A model generated the notes under the pieces. That model ran no database searches. It was not told the origin of the DNA and saw nothing but the letters and a program-made list of their open reading frames with translations. Below, one piece after another: positions 1,418 through 60,109 of a stretch of 64,000 nt of DNA (its first letter is position 1; each line of letters begins with the position of its first letter). The DNA comes from Raja brachyura (lineage: Eukaryota). The stretch spans positions 15,810,001 through 15,874,000 of the forward strand of contig OY740790.1 in the NCBI GenBank assembly GCA_963514005.1. The letters are read 5' to 3'. The translations under genes and the position numbers were made by a program.

Positions 1418-2336
1418 TAACATATAACAACATATAACAATTATAGCACGGAAACAGGCCATCTCGGCCCTTCAAGTCCGTGCCGAACAACTTTTTTCCC
1501 TTAGTCCCACCTGCCTGCACTCATACCATAACCCTCCATACCCTTCTCATCCATATGCCTATCCAATTTATTTTTAAATGATACCAACGAACCTGCCGCC
1601 ACCACTTCCACTGGAAGCTCATTCCACACCGCTACCACTCTCTGAGTAAAGAAGTTCCCCCTCATGTTACCCCTAAACCTCTGTCCCTTAATTCTAAAGT
1701 CATGTCCTCTTGTTTGAATCTTCCCTATTCTCAAAGGGAAAAGCTTGTCCACATTAACTCTGTCTATCCCTCTCATCATTTTAAAGACCTCTATCAAGTC
1801 CCCCCTTAACCTTCTGCGCTCCAGAGAATAAAGACCTAACTTATTCAACCTATCTCTGTAACTTAGCTGTTGAAACCCAGGCAACATTCTAGTAAATCTC
1901 CTCTGTACCCTCTCTATTTTGTTGACATCCTTCCTATAATTGGGCGACCAAAATTGTACACCATACTCCAGATTTGGTCTCACCAACGCCTTGTACAATT
2001 TTAACATTACATCCCAGCTTCTATACTCAATGCTCTGATTTATAAAGGCTAGCATACCAAAAGCTTTCTTTACCACCCTATCGATATGAGATTCTACCTT
2101 CAAGGAACTATGCACGGTTATTCCCAGATCCCTCTGTTCAACTGTATTCTTCAATTCCCTACCGTTTACCATGTACGTCCTATTTTGATTTGTCCTGCCA
2201 AGGTGTAGCACCTCACATTTATCAGCATTAAACTCCATCTGCCATCTTTCAGCCCATTTTTCCAACTGGCCTAAATCATTCTGTAGACTTTGGAAATCCT
2301 CTTCATTATCCACAACACCCCTATCTTGGTATCATC
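1418..2336 (-). mobile_element. 5'-truncated CR1-clade LINE (RT C-terminus + 3' UTR), young copy
   Basis: Intact ORF 1501..2313 (WQMEFNADKCEVLHLG...RPNLEYGVQFWSP...LYSLERRRLRGDLIE) and a short-repeat 3' tail. Near-identical to 19625-20944. Confidence 0.95.
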
Positions 2337-3716: not shown

Positions 3717-5208
3717 ATGTTCGGTTATGTTCTATGGCAATCTGTTATTAACCTCTGTGTTTACCACATCTTCACATTTTGTAGCATCTGAAATTTTTGA
3801 GATTTTAGCCTTCACATCCAAATCATTAGTATATATGTAAAAGAAACAATGGCTTTATCACTCAGAAATACCAGTGTCTATCATTCTCCAATCTGAAAAA
3901 CAACTATTTCACCATGACATGGCAAAATAAAGTGTTAGAGTAACTCAGCAGGTCAGGCAATGGATAGGCAATCTTTTGCCTTGGGACCCTTCCTCAAATT
4001 GATGTCTGAACTATTTACCATGACCATGACTTTAACCATTTCTTATCCGTGCTGCCATTGATAGTTTTATTCCATACCAACCAGTTAGGCTAACTCGTCT
4101 TTTATGGGACTTGATGAAATGCTTTGTGAAAATCCACATAAATAATGTCAATTGCAATTCTGTTGGCTTCATTACCTAATCAAAATAAATCAATAATGAT
4201 GATGAAACAGGAATTGCTTTTAAGAAATCTGCATTGGCTCTCTTTTTGATAATGTAAACTTTTTCACATGCGTTTTACTTTTTTTCCCTGATGATTGTTT
4301 GTAAAAGCTTCTCCACCTGTGAAGTTAAACTTGCCAATCTGTAATTTATAAATGAGAAAAATGTATTGGCCGTTTCCCAGTTCTCTGGCACCTTTAACAC
4401 ATCTTGAGAAGATTTGGAGATTATGGCAATCCGTTCTGCAATCTCCTCCACTTCCCTCCAATGTGTCTATCTGAATGAGATGAGTTGTTTATTTTAAGCA
4501 CTGGTGACCTTTCTAATGCCACCTTCCATTCCAATTTCCCACATCCATTATACGCATTATCTCCATACTTTATTTAAGGTTTTGACAGCATCCAGCAGGT
4601 GAAGGAAGGCCAGTGCAAAGTGTTCATTGTGTTCAACCATACATTCTGCCTCAATCTAAATTGCTTTGTTAATAGAAAGATTAAATGAGAATTTACCGTT
4701 TGAAGTTTGATCTCTATTTTATGCGAAGTTGGAGTGAGAGACTACGTGAAGAACCCGCGCGCCCACATGCATGTCAATCTTCAAAGCAACTGTACGAAAC
4801 CACAGACCTCGTGCACCAAATTAAACTATGGAAAGATTAATAACTCTTGACTTACCGAATTATCTTTATGAGATTCAGGGTTGGGAGTGGAGAGCACATA
4901 GTCGCTCACTCCAACTTCTCATAAAATAAAGATCAAACTTCAAATGGTAGGTTCTCGTTTAATCTTTCTATTTTATTTCAAAGTCTTGTGACGAGGCTAC
5001 TTGAAGCCGTCGAAGCTCTGTGGTTTCATGCAGTAAACCAATCTGTATGTGAACACACTACACAGATAAACCATAAATGGTTGAAAGAAAAAACATAGGC
5101 CATTCAAACATGATGCTGACTTTACATACATGTATATCGCCCTTAACAGAACCAAAGCCCCATTACATCGGAGTTAGTCAAGTGTCTCAATTAACACAGC
5201 CCAGAATT

Positions 5209-7890: not shown

Positions 7891-8254
7891 AAAAAAACAT
7901 CTTACCCGACGGAGCATTTCCGAATGCATCTGTATCTCACGCCATGCGACGGCGTATTGACGTGCATGTGGGCTGGTGGGTTCTTCACGTAGTCACGTCA
8001 CGAGACTGCGAAATAAAATTTATAATGGGCTTCGCCACTCCTTTTACCACCAGTTTATTTGCATTTCTTTGGAAGATTTGTGGTGGGGGTGCCGGAGTGA
8101 TTGTGGAGGCAGATACAATAGTGGCATTTATAAGGCTTTTAGATAGTAACACAGAGGTGCAAAAAATATAGGGATATGGATCATGTAAAGGCAGATGAGA
8201 TCAGTTTAACTTTGCACCATGTTTGGCACTATTCCTGTGCTCTACTGTTCTTTG

Positions 8255-8425
8255 GTTACACAAAAAGCTGGAGAAACTCAGCGGGTGCCGCAGCAGCTAA
8301 GGAGCGAAGGAGATGGGCGACGTCGCCTATTTCCTTCGCTCCTTGGATGCTGCTGCACCCGCTGAGTTTCTCCAGCTTTTTGTGTAGCCCTCGATTCTCC
8401 AGCATCTACAGTTCCTTCTTTAACA
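8255..8425. mobile_element. Fold-back (palindromic) Penelope pLTR mini-insertion with a 15-bp TSD
   Basis: The arms ggttacacaaaaagctggagaaactcagcgggtgc... and ...gcacccgctgagtttctccagctttttgtgtagcc are centred on GACGTC (8319-8324). Flanked by ctctactgttctttg at 8240-8254 and 8426-8440. Confidence 0.85.
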
Positions 8426-10628
8426 CTCTACTGTTCTTTGTTCCTTGCTCACCCATTCTCTTTGCTTATTTTCTATTTATTTCCCCAACTCAATTTATTA
8501 TATTCTGCCTAATTCTCTTAAATTATTCACCGTGATGGATAGTGCTCTTGACCCAATGTTACTAATGTGAATGAACGTTGCTACTGAGATTTTTATTTGG
8601 TTGTAGGTGTCGAGGTTTAATGGAGTCTAATCAACCTTGCAACAATGAAAACTAACTTTTGAAAGTTTTGAGACTCGTACTGCTCAGAATTTAATTGCTA
8701 TGGCAGCATTATTTTTTAATACTTATTAGTGCTGTCTTTTTTTAATCCCTCTATTGTTTACATCAATCTTTTCTTTTTGTCACTCGAATTTTTTTGGTCC
8801 TGGATTTAACATTGAATTTGCTTCTTACCATTCACGTGCTTGTTCAGATCTTTTCACTTCAGACTGTTGTTCATGTGAAACACATGAAATACTTAATCAG
8901 TATTTTGCTGTGAACCACTGGGGAAATTGATTTCTGCTCTTCAAATTCTATTCCCAATTAGGACTGTAATTATAAAAGCTGCATTCCAAATCATTTGTTT
9001 TTTTAATATAATTGTATGCCTTACTTTACAATACCTTTCTTCTTGCCTCTTTTTGGAAGCCTGTGAATCAAGGAGACTCAGTTTCCTCATGCTGTTAACA
9101 TGGATCCTTGTGAAGTGATTGCTGCTTTTCTCTCTGAGTTCATAGTCTCAGAATGAAATAGGCAGCAACGTCTCTAACAGATGGTAGGTACTGTTGGCTT
9201 ATTGATTAATGGAGGTTTCTCTACCATTCCGTTTTTCTCCCTCCTCCATGCAAGCAACATGGATATAAATTTAACCAATGGTACTGATCAAGCATGGCTC
9301 CATTTGAGCATGCAAAATAAATTTGTGCATAAATTAAACACATTTCTTGTGGGTCCAGAACCATTATCTGTTTTTTTCTTCTTTACCCAATTATTGTGGT
9401 TCATTGTCAGTACATGTTCAGAAATCGTTCACTTCAGGAAATGCTTTGACTGAATGTCCAGATGTTACTAATATGCTCCATTGCATGTACATTGAACATG
9501 TATTGACATATGAAGATCCCTTCACAGAACCTGAAGAAGAAATGGAATGATCGCAAAAGAGAACCTTGGGAACAAATGTTGATACAATCTTTAATCAAAT
9601 GAATGTGTTGAACAAATCCAAGGAAAACATTATACTCCCATATTTGTGGTTTACTTTTTGTGACAAAGAATGTCGCTTTGGTTAGTTTGGCAGAGTATTA
9701 AGCTAAGATATAGAACATATTTCATCAAAGTGCCCTGAAACACAAACATACTATTTATCATGTTAAGAAGCTTAATACTCTTTCAATTAAAACCATATTC
9801 TTTCTCCTGGCAAAGTAAACGGAGATAGAAAAATAAATATGATCAAAACTTGGAATTCATTAATATGAGAACATCAGAAAATGTTCAGGTATTTAGTGTG
9901 CAACAGCAAGTGACAAAGAAAGCCTGTGTTGCTGGAACTGTGAATCAGTTTATATAATTGATATAAAGGCAATGTACCTTTGCAACAAAAATGAGCCCTG
10001 AGGTTTAGGCTGGAATTGGTTACATTGTTGTCAAAACGAATTTCAAACCTGTGGCTGAGATGGTTTAGGAGTGAATGGGTTGTTAAATCTGTTGAAAGTG
10101 ACAAAATGTTAGTGAAATTAAACACTAACCCATCAAGCTCCACATTTATCTTGAGTTCATTTGCCCAACTATCTCAAGAGGCGGGTTGCGAAATTCGGTA
10201 GATGTTGTCGAGTTTAACATGCGGTGTGCAGGTTCCCGGAGCTTCCTGAAATTCTGCGATGAGTTGGTATATGGGGGGGGGGGAGGCTGAAGAGTTGACA
10301 GGCCGATCCAGCAAGATAACCTAAAAGCACTCAGCTGCTTTCTTCAACGTTTCTCTGAAAGACTCCTCATAAGTTGTCTTATTATTTGTTATGATTTGGT
10401 CCAACTTTGTGTATGATGGCATTCACTTTCTGTGGTTTGGAAGCATCCACTTGCTAACTGGGATTTCCAGCTCCCCAGGGCTAATCACCTTGGGTGCTTT
10501 TCATGGTGCCAAATGACAGATCCTAGGCTAGCATTCTGGTGCACAGCTACAAAAGATTCAACAGTAGGAGCAGCCTACTCCTCGTAATCCTGGAGTTCCA
10601 CAGTTCATTGGTTCTGTGCATAATGATG

Positions 10629-41827: not shown

Positions 41828-42790
41828 TAGGATACGATACAAATTAATTCATCCCTGGAGGGAAATTGGTCTGCCAACAGTCACAACACAACAAGGTACA
41901 CGAAAACTTGAAATGAAAGTTAAATTGAAAGTGAGAAAAAAAAAGAAAAAGACAAGCGTCTGTTGGCTGGCTGCCGTGTGTGCACAGCACCTGAACCAAA
42001 CAAACAGACAACAAACGAACACAGACTTATCCCTTGGGCAGAGGATTCAAAACTAGAATGCCTCCCCCACACCGGCTCCCCCTTTGTTCTCTCATGGTAC
42101 TTCACAGCGGTTCCCTCGCGACGGGTCCCCATTGTTCTTCACGGTGGCCCCGCAAGGCTCCCGTTATCGCCGAGGCCCCACCAACGCCGATGCTTCTGTT
42201 GCCGCCGAGGCCCCACCAACGCCAAGGCCCCACTGCTGCCGCCGAGGCCCCACTGCTGCCGCCGAGGCCCCACCATCGCCGAGGCCCCTGTTGCCACCAA
42301 GGCCCCACCACCGCCGAGGCTCCCTTTGCTGCCGAGGCTCCCACTGCTGCCACCGAGGCCCCACCAACGCCAAGGCCCCTGTTGGCGCCAAGGCCCCACC
42401 ACCGCCGAGTCTCCCTTTGCCGCCGAGGCCCCACCAACGCCAAGGCCCCTGTTGCCGCCGAGGCCCCACCAACGCTGAGGCCCCTGTTGCCGCCGAGGCC
42501 CCACCACCGCCGAGTCTCCCTTTGCCGCCGAGGCCCCACCAACGCCAAGGCCCCTGTTGCCACTGAGGCCCCACCACCGTCGAGTCTCCCTTTGCTGCCG
42601 AGGTACCCATCTCTGTCGCCGCTTAAACTCCTTCGGCCCAGACAGGCGTCGCCACCCGGCATCTCCGCTGTCCTCTGGGCGTCGTGTGGGGCGAGTCGGG
42701 TCGGGCCTACCGGGGCGCTTTACAGTTGTCAGCGCGGTTGTTCGGCGGTTGGATCAGGCCCAAGCAGCTCTCCCCGGAGCTTGGGGTAGA
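41828..42790 (-). mobile_element. GC-rich non-autonomous retroposon (copy E) containing a minisatellite
   Basis: The minus 3' end ...aatttccctccagggatgaattaatttgtatcgtatc is the same stem-loop tail type as copy A. Confidence 0.55.
42165..42605. repeat. GC-rich minisatellite built from 15/18-bp modules
   Basis: Repeats of gccgaggccccaccaac / gccaaggcccctgttgcc / gccgagtctccctttgcc. Confidence 0.9.
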
Positions 42791-44979
42791 TGTTAAATAT
42801 TGCAATAATTCACAGACCTATTTCAATATTTCAGACATAGCAATAATTTCAAGACCTGATCAAACATTGAGACAGGTGGACTAGGAGCAAAATAATGCTT
42901 TTTTTCTCTCTCTAGGCTGGAAATTGGTCTATTCCACCATTAGTAATTTTAGAAAATGTTATGGCTCATGCCCCAATCTTCCTAGGATTTAACAACTTGA
43001 TTAAGTTGCATTCTCTTACAATTTTGACAGTAGCTCATTAACTATGGAGAAGGTTAGGTATTCTCTCATTTCTACTCGGAACAGTTTGACCTTCACCTTA
43101 ATCTTAAAATTAATTTATATCCTCTTGTTGTGACCTGAAACTGTTAACGAGCAATGGGAAAATTATTTCCTTACTGGAAGTCTTCAGCCTTCTCTTCCTG
43201 TGGGAAACATTCCGCCTGTTTTCTCTTCTGACATATATTTTCACGTTGAGTCTTTGTGGATGAATGGATCTTCAATGATTTGGGAGGTTCATTATAGTTT
43301 CTCATTGCTAACATCCTCTGGCTTTAATACACCTTATATAATTGAATGCAATAAACGGCCGAGGGAACTGTAACTGCTCTCCACCAGGCACAGGCATTCC
43401 TTTTACTTAAGGACCATCTGTTTTCTAAGCTACAGGCTAAAAATGATAGTCTTGTAAATATGGCTGATAATATTTTGATCCAGAGCGTTGGCGCAATGAC
43501 TGAAATATCCCCAGGGCTGTTGGATTATTTAAATTACTAAATCAGAACTAAAGGGTTATAATTGTAACATTGAAAACAAAAAATTGTCACGATAAAAGGA
43601 CAGGATTGCCCCTTTAGGCAAGGGAACCTGCCACTTTTACTTGGTCTGCCCTCAAAATGATTTCACAACCACCCTCTGGAATGGCCAGAAAACCACTTGA
43701 TTTTATCTAACAATAAAAGCAAGAGGAATGCTCGCTAAACCATGCAGCATTAACCTAGGCACCAGATGTCCGATGTTTCCCTGTCGGCCTTCACAAGGAC
43801 CCCCTTGCAATATTTAAAGACTTGCCAATATTGGGGACATCTCACAGATTAGAGAAGGAATAATTGACTCCCAGAAATAATTCAGCCAAGCATATTCACT
43901 CTATTTCCTATTGACACAGCAGGAGGCTGTTTCAGCCCGTCAAGTCCATGCCAATTCGCAAAACCAATCCCATTTACCCCCAATAACACCACTCCCTGGC
44001 CTGCACTGTACATTAGCCGCTTCCAGCTGCTTCCAGGCCGCTTCCAGGCCGTGCCTGCGTCGACACCGTCACTACTGATCCTTACCAGCTCTCCAGCCTC
44101 TCACGGGCTGTGACCAATGACTCCGTCAATCCTCACCACTCCCATGGCTGCCAGCAAGCCGTGGGCCGTCAACTCAACTGGATTCCAGGCCCCTGTTCCA
44201 GACCGTGATCTGGCGAAAGGTCTCGACCCAAAACATATAGTATCCATTTTCTCCAGAGACGCTGTCTGATGTGCTGAGTTACTCTATTATTTTGTGTCTT
44301 TTTGTATATTAACCAGCATCTGCAGTTCTTTTTTTCTACTACTTGTGCAATGATACTCTATTACTTGGTAATCACCCAATTGGTTATCGCGGACAATCGG
44401 CAATAACGGACACAATTCATCTGCCTTTGGTCTGTTATTATGAGAGTTTACTCCGTGTTCATGAGATGAATGTTGTAACTCAGTATTAGAATTGTGCCTG
44501 CTGTACAGTCACATGTAAAGGAGGGGCAGGGACCTTTTTGAAGTCGGCACAAGTGTTGAGCCTGGTTAAAATGAGTTGCACATGCAACAGCAGCAATGTT
44601 CATTTTACTATCCCTCTTCCTCTTGCTATCTTCACCAGTGTTGTGTGAATGGAAACAAATGCAAATTAAACTAAATGACTGTCTCTCTTCTCACTGTTAC
44701 TTTGTCAGCCTTTTGGGGCAATGACCCAACCCACCCAGTTTGATAATGTTAAAAGCAGATTGGCTGCTGATTTATGAAAACAAAAGTGACTGCAGATCCT
44801 GAGATTTGGCTACTAATTTTGTGCTCCAGAAGGGGTTTTGTTGGATGTGTTTTGCAACCACTGGGTAACCAAGACTGATGGGTATGATGTGGAGAATGCA
44901 CCCGTAGACAAACAACACCCTCAACTCCCAACAACAAGGACTTCAGGGTACAATCTTCTATCTCATTGTACATGCAATG

Positions 44980-46869: not shown

Positions 46870-49800
46870 ATCCAGGATGTCATGGACAGAATGCAGAAAA
46901 TCCTCAAGAGCGAAGGTGAACAGCCGGAAGTGGTAGTGCATGTCGGCACAAACAATGTCGAAAAGAAGGGGATCAATATTCTGCAACATGACTTTAGAGA
47001 GCTCGGAAAAATGCTGAAAAGCAGGACCTCCAGGGTGGTTATCTCCGGTTTGCTTCCAGTTCCTCGTGCTGGCGAGAGCAGAAACAGGGAGATACGGGAC
47101 CTGGATGTATGGCTGTGAAACTGGTGCAGGGGGCAGGGATTTCGATTCTCAGATCACTGGGATCTGTTTTGGAGTACCGGGGAACTGCACAAAAGGGACG
47201 GATTGCATCTTAACAGGTGGGGGACCCCTGCCACTGCTACACGGGTGGTTTTAAACTGAATAAGTGGAGTGGGGTGTCAAATGGGATAGTCGAGGATGGA
47301 GTTAAAGGGAAAGAGAAAAAAGGGATAGTTAATGACCCCAGAATTAATGGGAAAGGAAGCTCACAAAGGGATAGTAGAGTATGGCCAAGTGTAATGGGGA
47401 TCAATGTGAAAGGTGAGATGCGTAAGGAATTAAAAGTATTGTATATGAATGCGCGAAGTATAAGAAGTAAAGTATATGAGCTTGAGGCTCAGTTAGAAGT
47501 TGGTAGATATGACATTGTGGGGATTACTGAGACGTGGCTGCAGGAGGATCGGGCCTGGGAACTTAATATTCAGGGTTATACATCAGGTGGGCAGAGGAGG
47601 GGGGGTAGCTCGCTGGTGAGGGATGGACATCGGGACTGACGAGGTAGAGTCGCTGTGGATTGAGTTGAGGAATTGTAAAGGCAAGCAGACACTAATTGGT
47701 GTTATCTACAGACACCCAAATAGTAGCCCGGATGTAGGGTGTAAGTAGCAGCAGGAGTTAAAACTGGCATGTAACAAAGGTAATGCCACTATGGTGATGG
47801 GGGATTTCAATATGCAGGTAGACTGGGAAAATCAGGTTGGTTCAGGACCCCAAGAAAGAGAGTTTGTAGAATGCCTCCGAGATGGATTCTTAGAGCAGCT
47901 TGTAATGGAGCCGACCAGAGAAAAGGCAATTCTGGATTTAGTGTTGTCCAATGAACCAGATATGATAAGAGAACTCGGGGTAAAGGAACCGCTTGGAGGT
48001 AGTGATCATAATATGATTAGTTTTAATCTGCAATTTGAGAAGGAGAAGGTTAAATCGGAAGTGTCAGTGATGCAGTTGAATAAAGGGAACTATGAAGGCA
48101 TGAGAGGGGAGCTGGCCAAGGTAGACTGGAAAGGGATCCTAACAGGAATGACGGTGGAACAGCAATGGCAGGAATTTCTGGGCATAATCCGGAAGACGCA
48201 GGATCATTTCATTCTAAAAAGGAAGAAAGATTCTAAGGGCAATAGGAGGCAACCATGGCTGACAAGAGAAGTTAGGGATAGAATAAAACTAAAAGAAAAG
48301 ATGTATAACACAGCAAAGAGTAGCCGGAAGCCAGAGGATTGGGAAACTTTCATAGGACCACAGAAGGAAACAAAACGAGCAATACAGGCTGAAAAGATGA
48401 AGTACGAAGGGAAGCTGGCCAGGAATATAAAAAAGGTCAGTAAAAGCTTCTTTAGATATGTTAAGGGAAAAAGAGTAGCAAAGTCAAATGTGGGTCCCTT
48501 GAAGGCAGACACGGGTGAAATTATTATGGGCAACAAAGAAATGGCAGAAGAGTTGAATAGGTACTTTGGTTCTGTCTTCAAAGGAAGACACAAACAATCT
48601 CCCAGATGTACTGGAGGACAGAGGAAGGGGGTAGAGGAACTAAACTACATTTTCATTAGGCGAGAAATAGTATTGGGTAGGCTAATGGGACTGAAGGATG
48701 ATCACTGCCCTGGGCCTGATGGTCTGCATCCCAGGGTCCTCGGGGGATGGCTCTAGAAATAGTGGATGCATTGGTGATCATTTTCCAATGTTCAATAGAT
48801 TCAGGATCAGTTCCTGTGGATTGGAGGATAGCTAATGTTATCCCACTTTTCAAGAAAGGAGCGAGAGAGAAAACGGGGAATTACAGACCAGTTAGCCTGA
48901 CTTCGGTGGTGGGAAAGATGCTGGAGTCAATTATTAAGGAGGTAATAATGGGGTATTTGGATAGCAGTAAAAGGATTAGTCCAAGTCAGCATGGAATTAT
49001 GAAAGGGAAATCATGCTTGACTAATCTTCTGGAATTTGTTTGAGGATGTGACAAGTAAAATGGATGAATGGGTGCCAGTGGATGCAGTGTATCTAGACTT
49101 TCAGAAAGCCTTTGATAAGGTCCCACACGGGAGATTGGTTACTAAAATTAGAGCACATGGTATTGGGAGTAGGGTGTTGACATGGATAGAAAATTGGTTG
49201 GCAGACCGGAAGCAAAGAGTAGGAGGGAACAGGTCCTTTTCAGAATGGCAGGCAGTGGCGAGTGGAGTGCCGCAAGGCTCGGTGTTGGGGCCGCAACTGT
49301 TTACCATATATATTCATGATTTGGAAGAGGGAATTAGGAGCAACACTAGCAAGTTTGCGGATGATACAAAGCTGGGTGGTAGTGTGAACTGTGAAGATTA
49401 TGTTAGGAGGTTGCAGGGTGACCTGGACAGGTTGAGTGGGTGGGCAGATGCGTGGCAGATGCAGTATAATATAGACAAATGTGAGGTTATCCACTTTGGC
49501 GGCAAAAACAAGGGGGCAGATTATTATCTCGATGGGGTTAGGTTAGGTAAGGGGGAGGTGCAGCGAGACCTGGGCGTCCTTGTACACCGGTCACTGAAAG
49601 TTGGCGTGCAGGTACGGCAGGCAGTGAAGAAAGCTAATGGAATGTTGGCCTTCATAACGAGAGGATTGCAGTATAGGAGTAAAGAGGTTCTTCTGCAGTT
49701 GTATAGGGCTCTGGTGAGACCACATCTGGAGTATTGTGTACAGTTTTTGTCTCCTAATTTTAGGAAGGACATCCTTATGATTGAGGCAGTGCCGTGTAGG

Positions 49801-50119
49801 TTCCCAATGTTGGGCGAGTCCAGAACCAGGGGCCACAATCTTAGAATAAAGGGGAGGTCATTTAAGACTGAGGTGAGAAATAACTTTTTCACCCAGAGAG
49901 TTGTGAATTTATGGAATTCCCTGCCACAGAGGGCAGTGGAGGCTAAGTCACTGGATGGATTTAAGAGAGAGTTAGATCGAGCTCTGGGGGCTAGTGGAGT
50001 CAAGGGATATGGGGAGAAGGCAGGCACGGGATAATGAGAGGGGACGGTCAGCCATGATCACAATGAATGGCTCAAAGGGCCGAATGGCCGCCTCCTGCAC
50101 CTATTTTCTATGTTTCTAT
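46870..50119 (+). mobile_element. Near-full-length degenerate CR1 LINE (ORF1 esterase end + ORF2 EN-RT)
   Basis: ORF1 SGNH-like VVVHVGTNN motif. ORF2 start LKVLYMNARSI..DIVGITETWL, MGDFN, SDHN, YRPVSLTS, DFQKAFDKVPH, PQGSVLGP, FADDTK; frameshifted; tttctatgtttcta tail. Confidence 0.95.
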
Positions 50120-53600: not shown

Positions 53601-54138
53601 GCTGAAGTGGTGAATCCCATTGGAGGTGGCAAAAATATTGGAGGATTATGTGCTGTATGTGACGGCTGATGGGGAAAACAGTGAGGACTAAGGGGACTGT
53701 CCCTGTTGCGACTTGGGGAGGGGGAGCAAGAGCAAAGCTGCTGGATATCGTGGAGACATGAGTGAGGGATTCATCTATGATGGAAGAGGGATGTAAACAA
53801 TAAGGTGAGATGTCCTGGTAGATCCACTAAATCAATACCTTTATGCTGCAGTGAGACACTCAACCCTGTTAATGCAAGTTGCATTCAAAATGAGAAAGGT
53901 GAGAACCACCTGACCACTGAAAAATGTGGATTCTCAAAATTCTTTAAGCATATTACTTCGCTAAACATTAATGCATTTACGGAAAATATTTAAATTCTCA
54001 CAATCAATAGTATTTATTTCCTTTAGTTATTTTGGGTTTGTCAGATTAACAATATACTTCACCATTTCAAACGTTTTTCTTGTTCTGATTTTGTGACGAT
54101 AATTCTACTGACTTGATCTTATATTCTCTCTCCTAAAG

Positions 54139-54260
54139 GGAATCTGCCATTGTGGGTTTGGAAATCCCTCGTGTTTCTGCAGTGCATGAAGGTGTTTATG
54201 AATGCATAGCAATCAGCAGTGCTGGCACTGGACGTGCACAGACCTTCCTGGATGTATCAG
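54139..54260 (+). CDS. HMCN1: Hemicentin-1 internal exon (equivalent to exon 10), 122 bp, second half of Ig domain 1
   Basis: ctaaAG acceptor and CAG|GTCAGA donor. Phase 2 continuation: (K)ESAIVGLEIPRVSAVHEGVYECIAISSAGTGRAQTFLDVS, with the Ig xxGxYxC motif. Confidence 0.94.
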
Positions 54261-54774
54261 GTCAGAATCCACTCAAATGTGCCTTAGTATTTCCATTTCA
54301 CATAGAAAAGTCTGTACAGAGAAGCTACACAATTTTAACACCTGAATGTGAATGCAAATTTTCATTTTGCGTTTCAGGATTTATCTCTGTCTGGTTCCCA
54401 AAGGGTGTTATGATGTTATATTGACAATGTCCATCCTTGTCTCTGATTGATAATTGGCAATCAGGCAGATTTCAAATGTTATAGTTATTGTCAAGGTAAT
54501 GGGGCCAATTTTAACCCATCCCATGCCAACAGAACAGGAATGGAGCTGTGTCTGATGGACCATTATTTTAATCGCTCACGGCAGGGTGGTGGCTGAATAA
54601 AATGCTGTAACCAGATGGGAGCATTTGTGCCTATGTAAATCGGCCTAAGGTCATGTGTCTAAATGGATTTTAAACAAGGCTGGATTGCTGATCCTTTCAT
54701 AATCTAAATGTCAGGTGAAGGCAGGACGTACTGTGAGGAAAATTTATAATTTCCCTTGCTCCCTTCACAACTTA

Positions 54775-58387: not shown

Positions 58388-59539
58388 CCAATTGATCAAT
58401 AACCAGATACTGATTTTATCAAAATGCACGAGTTATGTTCAATTTGTGTGTATTTGCATGCATTCTAAACTTTTTGCACTAAACATTAGGTTGAAACAAA
58501 ATCATAATGAGGATGTGGTGGATTCAGATGTTTGGCTATAAAAGGAAATGTATGTTAGATTCTGGTGCAACGTGACTGGTGGAAATTGTCCTGAAGCTGT
58601 GCATCAGATCTGCATAATATTAAATGAAAGTGAAAGTTTAAAGCCAACTTATTAACAGTGCTTTGCTCCACACAATGCAAGCAGCCATAAGAAGTTTGAT
58701 GGCTAGCTTGCCGTTGACTTTGTGGTGACCTAACTTCAGGGTTATGCAGAACATTTTTAGTATTTTAGGTTTCAGAGATAAATGAGCCCAATGTGTGTCT
58801 GTGCAAGCTTCTGGATAAATGCCATTGGGCTGCCTGGTGGTCCATTCCCATGCTGGACTAATCTCCTGCTTATAAATTGGAAAGGCCTGAAATTAAATTT
58901 ACTAAATTACCTTGGTGAAACCTCATGGAGGCCACATGTGGATTTTATTCTCTGGTGGTTTCATCTCAATCTACAGACATTCCCAGGCACTGCTGGGGAT
59001 TCCATGAGGAGGTTGACAAAGGTCATAATAATTAACATAAAAGCTGTAATTAAAATGTTGCAGTTGATTCAGTTAAAATGAAATTATCTTTAGCAAAGGA
59101 ATCTTTGCAAATATTCATAGGACACTAAAACTGTTGTTCTCCAGTCACAGGCATTCAAACATGTTTTCTTTATTACGAATTCTATATTTTAAATATTGGG
59201 ATTCATTCCCATTTGTCCATTCATTGATTCTATTTTTTTAATTGATTTTCAAGTTAGTATGTTGAAAGTTAGTGTCGCAATGGAAAGAAAATCATGTATC
59301 TTAATGTGTACCAAACCTATTCCATGAATGGTTTTGAGGACAAGAGGAACTCAATTTAATGCTTCAAACTCATTCTCCCATTCACTACGTTCATGGCTGA
59401 TCTGTGACCTTTCTCCTTGACATTCACCTGCATTCCTTAATATAATAGGTTGGCAAAAAATTATTAATCTTTGATTTAAAGTTATCAATTGACAGAGCAC
59501 CAATTACTGTTTGCTAGAAGAAGTATCCTAAATTTATCT

Positions 59540-59644
59540 GTATTATCAATCTGAAGAAGGGTCTCGACCCGAAACGTCACCTATTCCTTCGCTCCATAGA
59601 TGCTGCCTCACTCGCTGAGTTTCTCCAGCATTTTTATCTACCTT
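59540..59644 (+). mobile_element. 105-bp hammerhead-bearing pLTR mini-element with a 12-bp TSD
   Basis: Flanked by ctaaatttatct at 59528-59539 and 59645-59656. Confidence 0.85.
59551..59578 (+). ncRNA. Minimal type-I hammerhead ribozyme core (intact, sense to HMCN1)
   Basis: CTGAAGA-A-GGGT-CTCG-ACCC-GAAA-CGTC, with predicted cleavage after C59578. Confidence 0.72.
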
Positions 59645-60109
59645 CTAAATTTATCTCACTCTGTTTAGAAGTGTTTCCTAACTTAATTCCTAATTTATTT
59701 GTCTTAGATCCCCCAATAATTAGAGATATGTTTCTGTCTATACACTTGGTTCCCCTTGATATTGAGTACTTCTATTTAATCATCCCTTTGGCTTCTTTGA
59801 AATACAACCCCAGTTTGCAAAATCTTGTTGTTCAACCATTGGAATTTGGCTGCCCAGTTAAATCCACACTGCATTTCCTCTGCGGTCATTATATCCTCCC
59901 TGAGGTATGGTGCACAGATCTGCTGATGGTACTTACGTTTTGAGCATTGTATATTTATTTACATTTTTGTATATTTGTGGCATAACTTTTATCATGTATT
60001 TGGTCACCTGGAGTAGAAGAATATTCCATTAACCTTTATGATTATTTTCTGCACCTGTCCATTATATTTTAATGATCTGTCCAGATGTGCCCCTCAAGTT
60101 TTATGCACT

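What the first reader, a model, noticed from the sequence alone, without database searches (positions are those of the whole stretch)
59528..59656. Independently inserted 105-bp hammerhead-ribozyme mini-retroelement in an HMCN1 intron
Seen: a 105-bp insert consisting of little more than an intact hammerhead core (CTGAAGA-stem II-GAAA-CGTC) and a short piece of Penelope pLTR, bounded by a perfect 12-bp direct repeat. Established: Penelope-like elements carry minimal hammerheads with a palindromic stem III in their pLTRs, proposed to cleave as dimers, and TPRT gives variable-length TSDs. Inference: this is a non-autonomous, retrozyme-like unit mobilised by the Penelope RT/GIY-YIG machinery (present at 12150-13485). 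It lies sense to HMCN1, so it is transcribed into the pre-mRNA.
Basis: partly seen in the sequence, partly recalled or inferred. Interest (0 to 1): 0.75.

Follow-up and report, generated by a model that had tools for sequence, protein, structure and literature searches.

The report
Short Penelope retroelement stub with hammerhead
The 105-base insert in a hemicentin-1 gene is the end piece of a very common Penelope-like jumping gene carrying that family's known small hammerhead motif; it is likely a dead-end copy rather than a mobile element of its own, but such stubs start unusually often right at the hammerhead's front edge, which may mark where the parent RNA begins.

Summary
In detail: 105 bp (59540-59644) between perfect 12-bp direct repeats, with all minimal-hammerhead core letters, sense to HMCN1. 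The 'independent retrozyme-like family' reading is not supported. The insert is the tail-less 3' end of a Neptune-type Penelope-like element (PLE). Its nearest in-window relative is the RT-bearing copy at 12150-13485 (94%), and short copies do not form a clade (p-AU 5e-8). It is a solo 105-mer, not a tandem array. Helix I has only one pair next to the core, the hammerhead is not the favoured fold, and sense copies are not depleted, so cutting the pre-mRNA is unlikely. The insert is old: its 5' junction is shared by three organism labels, probably four. Against plain random truncation, 7 of 13 in-window copies begin within about 7 bases of the hammerhead's front edge, and about 2,000 contigs per run end there with unrelated flanks; no pile is listed at the cleavage site. 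Best reading: the parent's internally starting RT runs off a fixed RNA 5' end (start site or splice acceptor) at the hammerhead edge, repeatedly making fixed-size stubs. Mostly ordinary; the 5' hot spot is a modest, testable mechanistic clue.

The parts
59528..59539 (+). 5' target-site duplication, 12 bp, AT-rich
   Evidence: chance 17 of 4,977
59540..59549 (+). 5' junction: about 5 unexplained bases, then ATCAA, read as the element's ATCAG with G>A (this removes helix I pair 2.2-1.2 and the AG)
   Evidence: (contigs align from 59545); origin of the bases is inference
59550..59584 (+). minimal type I hammerhead motif (U2.1, core, stem II, palindromic ACGT helix III, predicted cut 59578/59579, 3' arm of helix I)
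   Evidence: sequence read against the min-HHR description in PMC4209133; no Rfam hit
59585..59644 (+). rest of the pLTR to the tail-less 3' boundary; holds an ATG near 59600 whose frame stays open through the tail in the long copy, likely the first codons of the PLE ORF
   Evidence: 1 difference from 13366-13452 over this part
59645..59656 (+). 3' target-site duplication
12150..13485 (+). 5'-truncated, frameshifted PLE copy (RT end, thumb, endonuclease, pLTR with a deletion in the hammerhead, 33-bp tail 13453-13485); nearest relative of the insert
24318..25110 (-). second long PLE copy, with linker Zn-finger-like motif C-x4-C-x2-C (Neptune/Nematis type) and tail
   Evidence: clade trait from PMC8557442
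10713..10810 (+). second tail-less stub starting at the hammerhead edge, inside another repeat, with a 5-bp imperfect TSD; paralogous repeat copies are uninterrupted there
36321..36470 (+). tailed stub starting at the hammerhead edge, 9-bp TSD
3908..4024 (-). old stub starting about 7 bases before the hammerhead, 11-bp TSD (91%)
28518..28763 (.). fold-back pair: one arm starts at the hammerhead edge and is tail-less, the other is tailed; 14-bp TSD (93%)
54137..54265 (+). last HMCN1 exon found upstream of the insert

Best explanation
The insert is a TSD-flanked 105-bp copy of the hammerhead-bearing end of an abundant Neptune-type Penelope-like element, likely a dead-end product of the parent's own reverse transcriptase rather than a self-propagating element. 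Shown: TSD, identity to a long RT-bearing copy, tail-less 3' end, a 5' hot spot at the hammerhead front edge, and no clade of short copies. Inferred by analogy with the anole element PAc (PMC11167929): the endonuclease nicks AT-rich DNA and RT starts internally at the tail-less site on uncleaved RNA. Inferred and least certain (about 0.45): when RT uses the start site in the 5' pLTR of the element's mRNA, it runs off the RNA's 5' end just in front of the hammerhead (an initiator-like YYAGTCT), giving stubs of about 95-100 bp without tail and 120-135 bp with tail. This copy's hammerhead is likely inactive, and the insert likely neutral to HMCN1.
For: Insert is sister to the long copy 13366 (94% over 87 columns; tree support 84/65), and holding the 7 short copies together is rejected (delta lnL 42, p-AU 5e-8). 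7 of 13 copies start within about 7 bases of the edge; rough exponential null P(>=5)=1.5e-5. Loose ends before 59550: 2058/2211/2104/1996 contigs, AT-rich, agreement 0.33, ending CAG or GAG. Before 59545 and 59546: 559-813 each, pyrimidine-rich pLTR, agreement 0.38-0.41. Back-joints and inversions also land on 59550; 3 of the 5 listed spacers for 59584->59550 end in GAG, as expected if an extra G precedes AG (cap copying is recalled knowledge, not from a call). No pile is listed at the cleavage site, matching PAc, where uncleaved RNA is the main template. 3' ends fall at the tail-less or tailed boundary; both fold-back pairs have one arm of each. Helix I has 1 adjacent pair; P(stem II) about 0.1 and P(2.1-1.1) 0.0 in the ensemble; the homodimer MFE is not the hammerhead. 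Single-arm copies: 8 sense, 4 antisense to HMCN1 (two weak hits left out).
Against: The query itself has no pLTR upstream of 59550, so longer copies also clip at 59545-59551 and inflate those piles. Contig counts favour unique flanks, and the tool said some loose ends were not counted (749 rows, 66 joints and 613 spacer rows not shown). The same letters fit a splice acceptor (polypyrimidine tract + YAG; the D. virilis intron ends at helix I) and a small palindrome TCAG-T-CTGA. Two of the 7 short calls (44209, 57851) lack a TSD. The null used approximate lengths and a window chosen after the fact. The tree has 96 columns and is weak (1 of 10 branches starred); several independent mini families are not excluded. 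PAc is a Poseidon-clade element; this one is Neptune-type. No RNA data.
Confidence: 0.7

Rival explanations
1. A self-propagating non-autonomous family (retrozyme- or SINE-like) of about 100 bp, transcribed, cleaved as dimers and mobilised in trans by the PLE protein.
For: Discrete size, with both ends clustered. Some head-to-tail joints 59643-45->59550, 6-18 contigs per row in X1, spacer not known. Two stubs share ATCAA before the core. Retrozymes are reported to derive from pLTRs.
Against: Short copies are not a clade and each sits near long copies. Solo, 105 bp, one hammerhead; described retrozyme RNAs are about 170-400 nt from tandem repeats. Head-to-tail joints are a tiny share of about 88,000 contigs. 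5' ends are not at the cleavage site, as a cleaved monomer would need.
Confidence: 0.1
2. The 5' hot spot is a splice acceptor: spliced element or host-element RNAs are the template, so copies begin at the exon 2 edge, or RT is stopped by factors bound at the acceptor.
For: The 5 long copies have a pyrimidine-rich stretch (72-93%) before the core, 4 of them ending in or next to YAG. The D. virilis intron ends at the 5' end of helix I, and a 5'-UTR intron is shared by distant PLEs.
Against: AG is usually kept in the loose ends, and no common exon 1 shows upstream (agreement 0.33). Listed spacers at 59584->59550 are only 3-5 bases. PLEs are reported to retain introns on transposition.
Confidence: 0.2
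3. Ordinary premature termination: RT stalls or the cDNA folds back at the structured hammerhead and the TCAG-T-CTGA palindrome, and microhomology with the target fixes the junction; no RNA end is involved.
For: Fold-back copies are centred on palindromes (8254-8389 on ACGT; 28652 junction). Self-priming at palindromes is proposed for PLEs. TSDs at 36329 and 10713 overlap the element's AGT.
Against: The peak is sharp and lies just past the structure rather than at its 3' side. The insert and the 3996 copy show no microhomology. G at -3 is the majority letter in 2 of 4 runs.
Confidence: 0.25
4. The copy is a co-opted intronic ribozyme that cuts or regulates HMCN1 pre-mRNA.
For: Sense orientation, core letters and ACGT kept (2 of 11 aligned copies keep both), and present in several organism labels.
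Against: Helix I is degraded and the fold unfavourable. Minimal PLE hammerheads show no monomer activity and low dimer activity, or need the PLE protein. Flanks are also 98-100% conserved across those labels, so retention needs no selection.
Confidence: 0.03

Closest known systems
Solo minimal hammerheads (min-HHR) of truncated metazoan PLEs (Cervera & De la Pena 2014, PMC4209133)
   Same: Type I core, bulged base before stem II, G10.1-C11.1 pair, palindromic positions around helix III, short helix I; most occur as single genome-wide motifs from truncated PLEs.
   Different: The parts read do not report skates or a 5' truncation peak at the hammerhead edge; this copy's helix I is reduced to one adjacent pair.
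PAc, Poseidon element of Anolis (Frangieh et al. 2024, PMC11167929)
   Same: Two 3' boundaries (tail-less and about 33-bp tail), ORF start inside the pLTR near the hammerhead, AT-rich target, no ends at the cleavage site.
   Different: Here the linker has a Neptune-type Zn-finger motif and the ATG lies after the hammerhead, not at stem II; the paper's main text does not describe fixed-size 5' run-off stubs (Fig. S2 not seen).
Metazoan non-LTR retrozymes (PMC7229834; bioRxiv 10.64898/2026.07.22.740005)
   Same: Non-coding, type I hammerhead, related to PLE pLTRs, TSD longer than 4 bp; dispersed monomers exist.
   Different: Retrozymes are tandem repeats with at least two hammerheads, giving about 170-400-nt linear and circular RNAs; this is a solo 105-mer with a minimal motif, nested among long PLE copies.
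Solo and inverted pLTR insertions of EN+ PLEs (PMC3846280, PMC8557442)
   Same: Heavy 5' truncation, inverted pairs with a tail on one arm, TSDs of 8-15 bp, palindromes at inversion points, Inr-like motif in the pLTR.
   Different: Much higher density here (15 loci, 2.7% of the window) and a sharp 5' boundary.

Membership tests
EN+ Penelope-like element, truncated pLTR copy | Sequence is the terminal repeat of an element with RT followed by a GIY-YIG-type endonuclease | tested here: met
   94% to 13366-13452, which follows RT and endonuclease matches to P0023/P0004; direct Pfam scan of the broken frames gave 0 hits, homologues carry PF00078, PF26215 and (P0018) PF01541
EN+ Penelope-like element, truncated pLTR copy | Optional 30-40-bp tail; 3' ends at two sites | tested here: met
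   insert tail-less; 33-bp tail at 13453-13485; both fold-backs have one tailed arm
EN+ Penelope-like element, truncated pLTR copy | Variable-length TSD | tested here: met
   12 bp here; 5, 9, 11, 14 and 15 bp at relatives
EN+ Penelope-like element, truncated pLTR copy | pLTR includes the first codons of the ORF | tested here: inconclusive
   ATG frame open for 26 codons through the tail in 13366; no full-length element in hand to confirm
Neptune/Nematis clade | [quoted passage not shown] | tested here: met
   C-x4-C-x2-C in the 24318-25110 copy; a shorter Cys cluster in the 12150 copy; trait
Neptune/Nematis clade | RT phylogeny with reference Neptune elements | not tested
   no named reference sequences were fetched
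Minimal PLE hammerhead | Conserved core CUGANGA / GAA / NUH, base between 9 and 10.1, palindromic helix III | tested here: met
   sequence 59551-59578
Minimal PLE hammerhead | Helix I of at least 2 pairs next to the core | tested here: not met
   1 pair then 3 mismatches; the family usually has 2
Minimal PLE hammerhead | Covariation in helices | tested here: inconclusive
   76.6% of 77 cells paired (slid controls 14-49%), but 1 compensatory cell, no better than shuffles (422/500); copies are decayed and few
Minimal PLE hammerhead | Self-cleavage as dimer or with protein | not testable with these tools
   bench assay needed
Non-LTR retrozyme | Tandem repeat with at least two hammerheads | tested here: not met
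   solo copy; head-to-tail joints rare genome-wide
Non-LTR retrozyme | Own lineage distinct from autonomous copies | tested here: not met
   monophyly of 7 short copies rejected, p-AU 5e-8
Non-LTR retrozyme | Abundant 170-400-nt linear or circular RNA | not tested
   no RNA run was laid; unit is 105 bp

The most novel reading that the evidence does not exclude
In cartilaginous fishes, Penelope-like elements mass-produce fixed-length stubs because their internally starting RT uses the start site in the 5' pLTR and runs off a capped RNA end placed right at the hammerhead. The stubs would be a genomic record of the transcription start and of cap copying, and the hammerhead would sit at the very 5' end of the mRNA, where cutting would decap it rather than release a monomer for circularisation.
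Probability: 0.3. Interest if true: 0.6.

Novelty: new member of a known kind. Interest (0 to 1): 0.3.

Why it matters
The single insert matters little: it is one of very many decayed PLE ends. The role of PLE hammerheads is still open (circular-RNA model in PMC4209133 versus uncleaved template in PMC11167929). Copy ends at the hammerhead's front edge, and not at its cut site, favour the uncleaved template and point to the RNA's 5' end. With so many copies, this can be tested directly in skate genomes and 5'-end RNA data. I found no description of this 5' hot spot in searches (open-access library only; Repbase/Dfam, subscription journals and Lunse et al. 2017 not seen).

Tried and rejected
No whole genome was held, so copies could not be collected genome-wide. 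Pattern scans found 0 matches in metagenome, viral and prokaryote collections. Rfam: 0 hits at gathering threshold; one chance lncRNA hit at E 4.7. MFE folds of the insert are no better than shuffles (z -0.72). Pfam found nothing in 4 of 4 broken PLE frames. The protein atlas gave only sub-0.9 bacterial look-alikes for the HMCN1 exon. No RNA holder listed. No empty-site joint was among the 15 joints shown in 4 of 21 listed runs (66 not shown); the left flank in organism D had no cover. Summed depth was not used as copy number. Covariation test negative against shuffles. Supplement search of PMC11167929 found nothing in 3 text files; its Fig. S2 may bear on the 5' boundary. Supplements of the bioRxiv preprint were not seen. 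Lunse et al. 2017 was not held. A literature search for cap-derived G gave one irrelevant paper. Rejected: a cleaved-monomer origin (5' end is 29-39 bases upstream of the cut site); a recent insertion (shared across organism labels); the 5' 10 bases as an inverted copy of the element start (no match by inspection).

Full report
Observation. The window holds a 105-bp insert at 59540-59644 between two identical 12-mers. An exact repeat this long at this spacing came up at 17 of 4,977 random positions. The host gene is HMCN1 on the + strand: six exons map from 30427 to 54265 and none after it up to 64000, so the insert lies 5.3 kb into what is inferred to be an intron, in sense. The nearest named PLE proteins are from Leucoraja and Amblyraja (79%), which points to a skate-like host.

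Parent element. The insert from 59550 matches the 3' end of a broken element at 12150-13485 whose frames match PLE RT, thumb and endonuclease. That copy runs 33 bases further (the PLE 'tail'); the insert stops at the tail-less boundary. An ATG in the repeat opens a frame that runs through the tail, as in other PLEs whose pLTR holds the first codons. A second long copy has a C-x4-C-x2-C linker motif, the Neptune/Nematis trait. Clade membership was not tested by tree.

Hammerhead. All core letters, the bulged base, G10.1-C11.1 and the ACGT palindrome fit the minimal PLE hammerhead. Rfam does not detect it. In this copy 59549 is A, so helix I has one pair then three mismatches; 7 of 11 aligned copies keep the second pair. 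Stem II pair probability is about 0.1, and neither monomer nor homodimer MFE is the hammerhead; the same holds for the better copy at 36604, so folding alone does not prove inactivity. Covariation among 11 decayed copies is no better than shuffles. Published minimal PLE hammerheads are inactive as monomers, weak as dimers, or need the PLE protein. Single-arm copies are 8 sense to 4 antisense (two weak hits left out; the region before 30427 is assumed intronic). Cutting of the pre-mRNA is unlikely.

Copies in the window. nhmmer, built from 9 in-window copies, gave 18 hits. I dropped 3 (one cut by the window edge, two weak fragments) and counted each of two fold-back pairs once, leaving 13. Seven begin within about 7 bases of the hammerhead's front edge (3996, 10713, 28652, 36329, 44209, 57851, 59550), five continue into pyrimidine-rich pLTR (13366, 16670, 24446, 36604, 38306), and one fold-back is centred on ACGT. 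TSDs support the boundary for four single stubs and flank the 28652 pair; 44209 and 57851 have none and are less sure. A rough exponential null with approximate lengths and a post hoc 8-base window gives P=1.5e-5 for 5 of 13 and 1.5e-8 for 7. Fifteen loci cover 2.7% of the window.

Are the stubs a family? No sign of it. The insert's nearest relative is the long copy 13366 (94%); the label short/long needs 5 changes on the tree, no fewer than shuffles, and forcing the 7 short copies together is rejected (p-AU 5e-8). The tree is short and weakly resolved, so several separate mini families cannot be excluded, but repeated production from different parent subfamilies is simpler.

Public runs. Four of 21 listed runs, one each for organism labels A-D, were laid as contigs on 59300-59900; A may be the window's own source. 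Between 87,572 and 105,104 contigs were laid per run, nearly all on the insert. In A, B and C a contig crosses the 5' junction with 33-34 insert bases; in all four a contig starts 26 bases inside the insert and crosses the 3' junction (short of the tool's 31-base rule). No empty-site joint was among those shown. The insertion is therefore old and shared. The largest loose-end pile is before 59550 (about 2,000 contigs per run), with AT-rich letters of near-random agreement (0.33) ending CAG or GAG. Piles before 59545 and 59546 (559-813) carry recognisable pLTR. Inversions and back-joints also use 59550. No pile at the cut site is among the 24 rows shown of 773. Caveats: the query lacks upstream pLTR, contigs favour unique flanks, and counts were incomplete.

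Mechanism. In the anole element PAc, RT starts inside the RNA at two sites that define the tail, the target is AT-rich, and uncleaved RNA is the main template. A PLE mRNA carries this start region near its 5' end as well, because the promoter and first codons lie in the pLTR. RT starting there would reach the RNA's 5' end after about 100-135 bases and leave a fixed-size stub. The letters in front of the core fit an initiator (YYAGTCT; consensus recalled), the AG is usually kept, and GAG is common at joints (3 of 5 listed spacers; majority in 2 of 4 runs), as cap copying would give (recalled). The same letters fit a splice acceptor, with a precedent in D. virilis, and a small palindrome, with a precedent for fold-back. 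I put run-off from a start site at about 0.45, stall or fold-back at 0.25, splicing at 0.2 and a true mini family at 0.1.

Comparison. It works like, and is filed as, a truncated PLE pLTR copy with a minimal hammerhead. It fails two retrozyme criteria (tandem with two hammerheads; own lineage), as defined. An earlier AI note on another shark-like genome (e1-7858200) reached a similar reading; it is not counted as evidence.

Papers seen: PMC4209133 parts 1-2 of 4; PMC11167929 parts 1-2 of 4 plus an empty supplement search; bioRxiv 10.64898/2026.07.22.740005 parts 1-3 of 5, no supplements; PMC2377424 parts 2-3 of 4; PMC8557442 introduction and passages; PMC3846280, PMC6765202 and PMC7229834 passages only; Lunse et al. 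2017 only as cited in PMC6765202.

Verdict. Real, old, almost certainly inert, and of a known kind. The non-random 5' boundary is the one point worth following. Interest 0.3.

Noticed in passing
window 8240-8440: Fold-back PLE insert with a perfect 15-bp TSD; 68-nt arms meet exactly on the hammerhead's ACGT palindrome, just 5' of the predicted cut; one arm tail-less, one tailed.
   Followed up: partly
window 59550-59584 (joints): Contigs in all four runs show head-to-tail repeats of the 35-40-base hammerhead core alone (59584->59550; 12-18 contigs per run), a possible natural minimal dimer.
   Followed up: no
window 36329-36604: Two PLE ends of different subfamilies lie tail to tail about 30 bases apart on opposite strands.
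   Followed up: no
window 36564-36614, minus strand: Copy with intact core, two helix I pairs and an A-U for G-C change at the base of stem II; the best natural candidate for a cleavage assay.
   Followed up: partly
window 3998-4008 (minus) and 59540-59549: Two unrelated stubs both carry ATCAA instead of ATCAG before the core; chance or a shared 5' processing step.
   Followed up: no
window 1501-2331, 19705-21027, 47749-50034, 13728-14831: Several LINE-like (CR1/L2/Rex-type by recall) RT fragments; those at 1501 and 19705 have near-identical translations, suggesting recent activity.
   Followed up: no
window 41924-42796: GC-rich tandem repeat giving long open frames on both strands.
   Followed up: no
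window 59657-59668, organism D: 12-base deletion right after the 3' TSD in one run.
   Followed up: no
P0002, P0008, P0010: Database proteins named as host genes (nicotinamide riboside kinase 1, DIPK1C, CHID1) of rays and skates contain PLE RT sequence; likely annotation chimeras.
   Followed up: no
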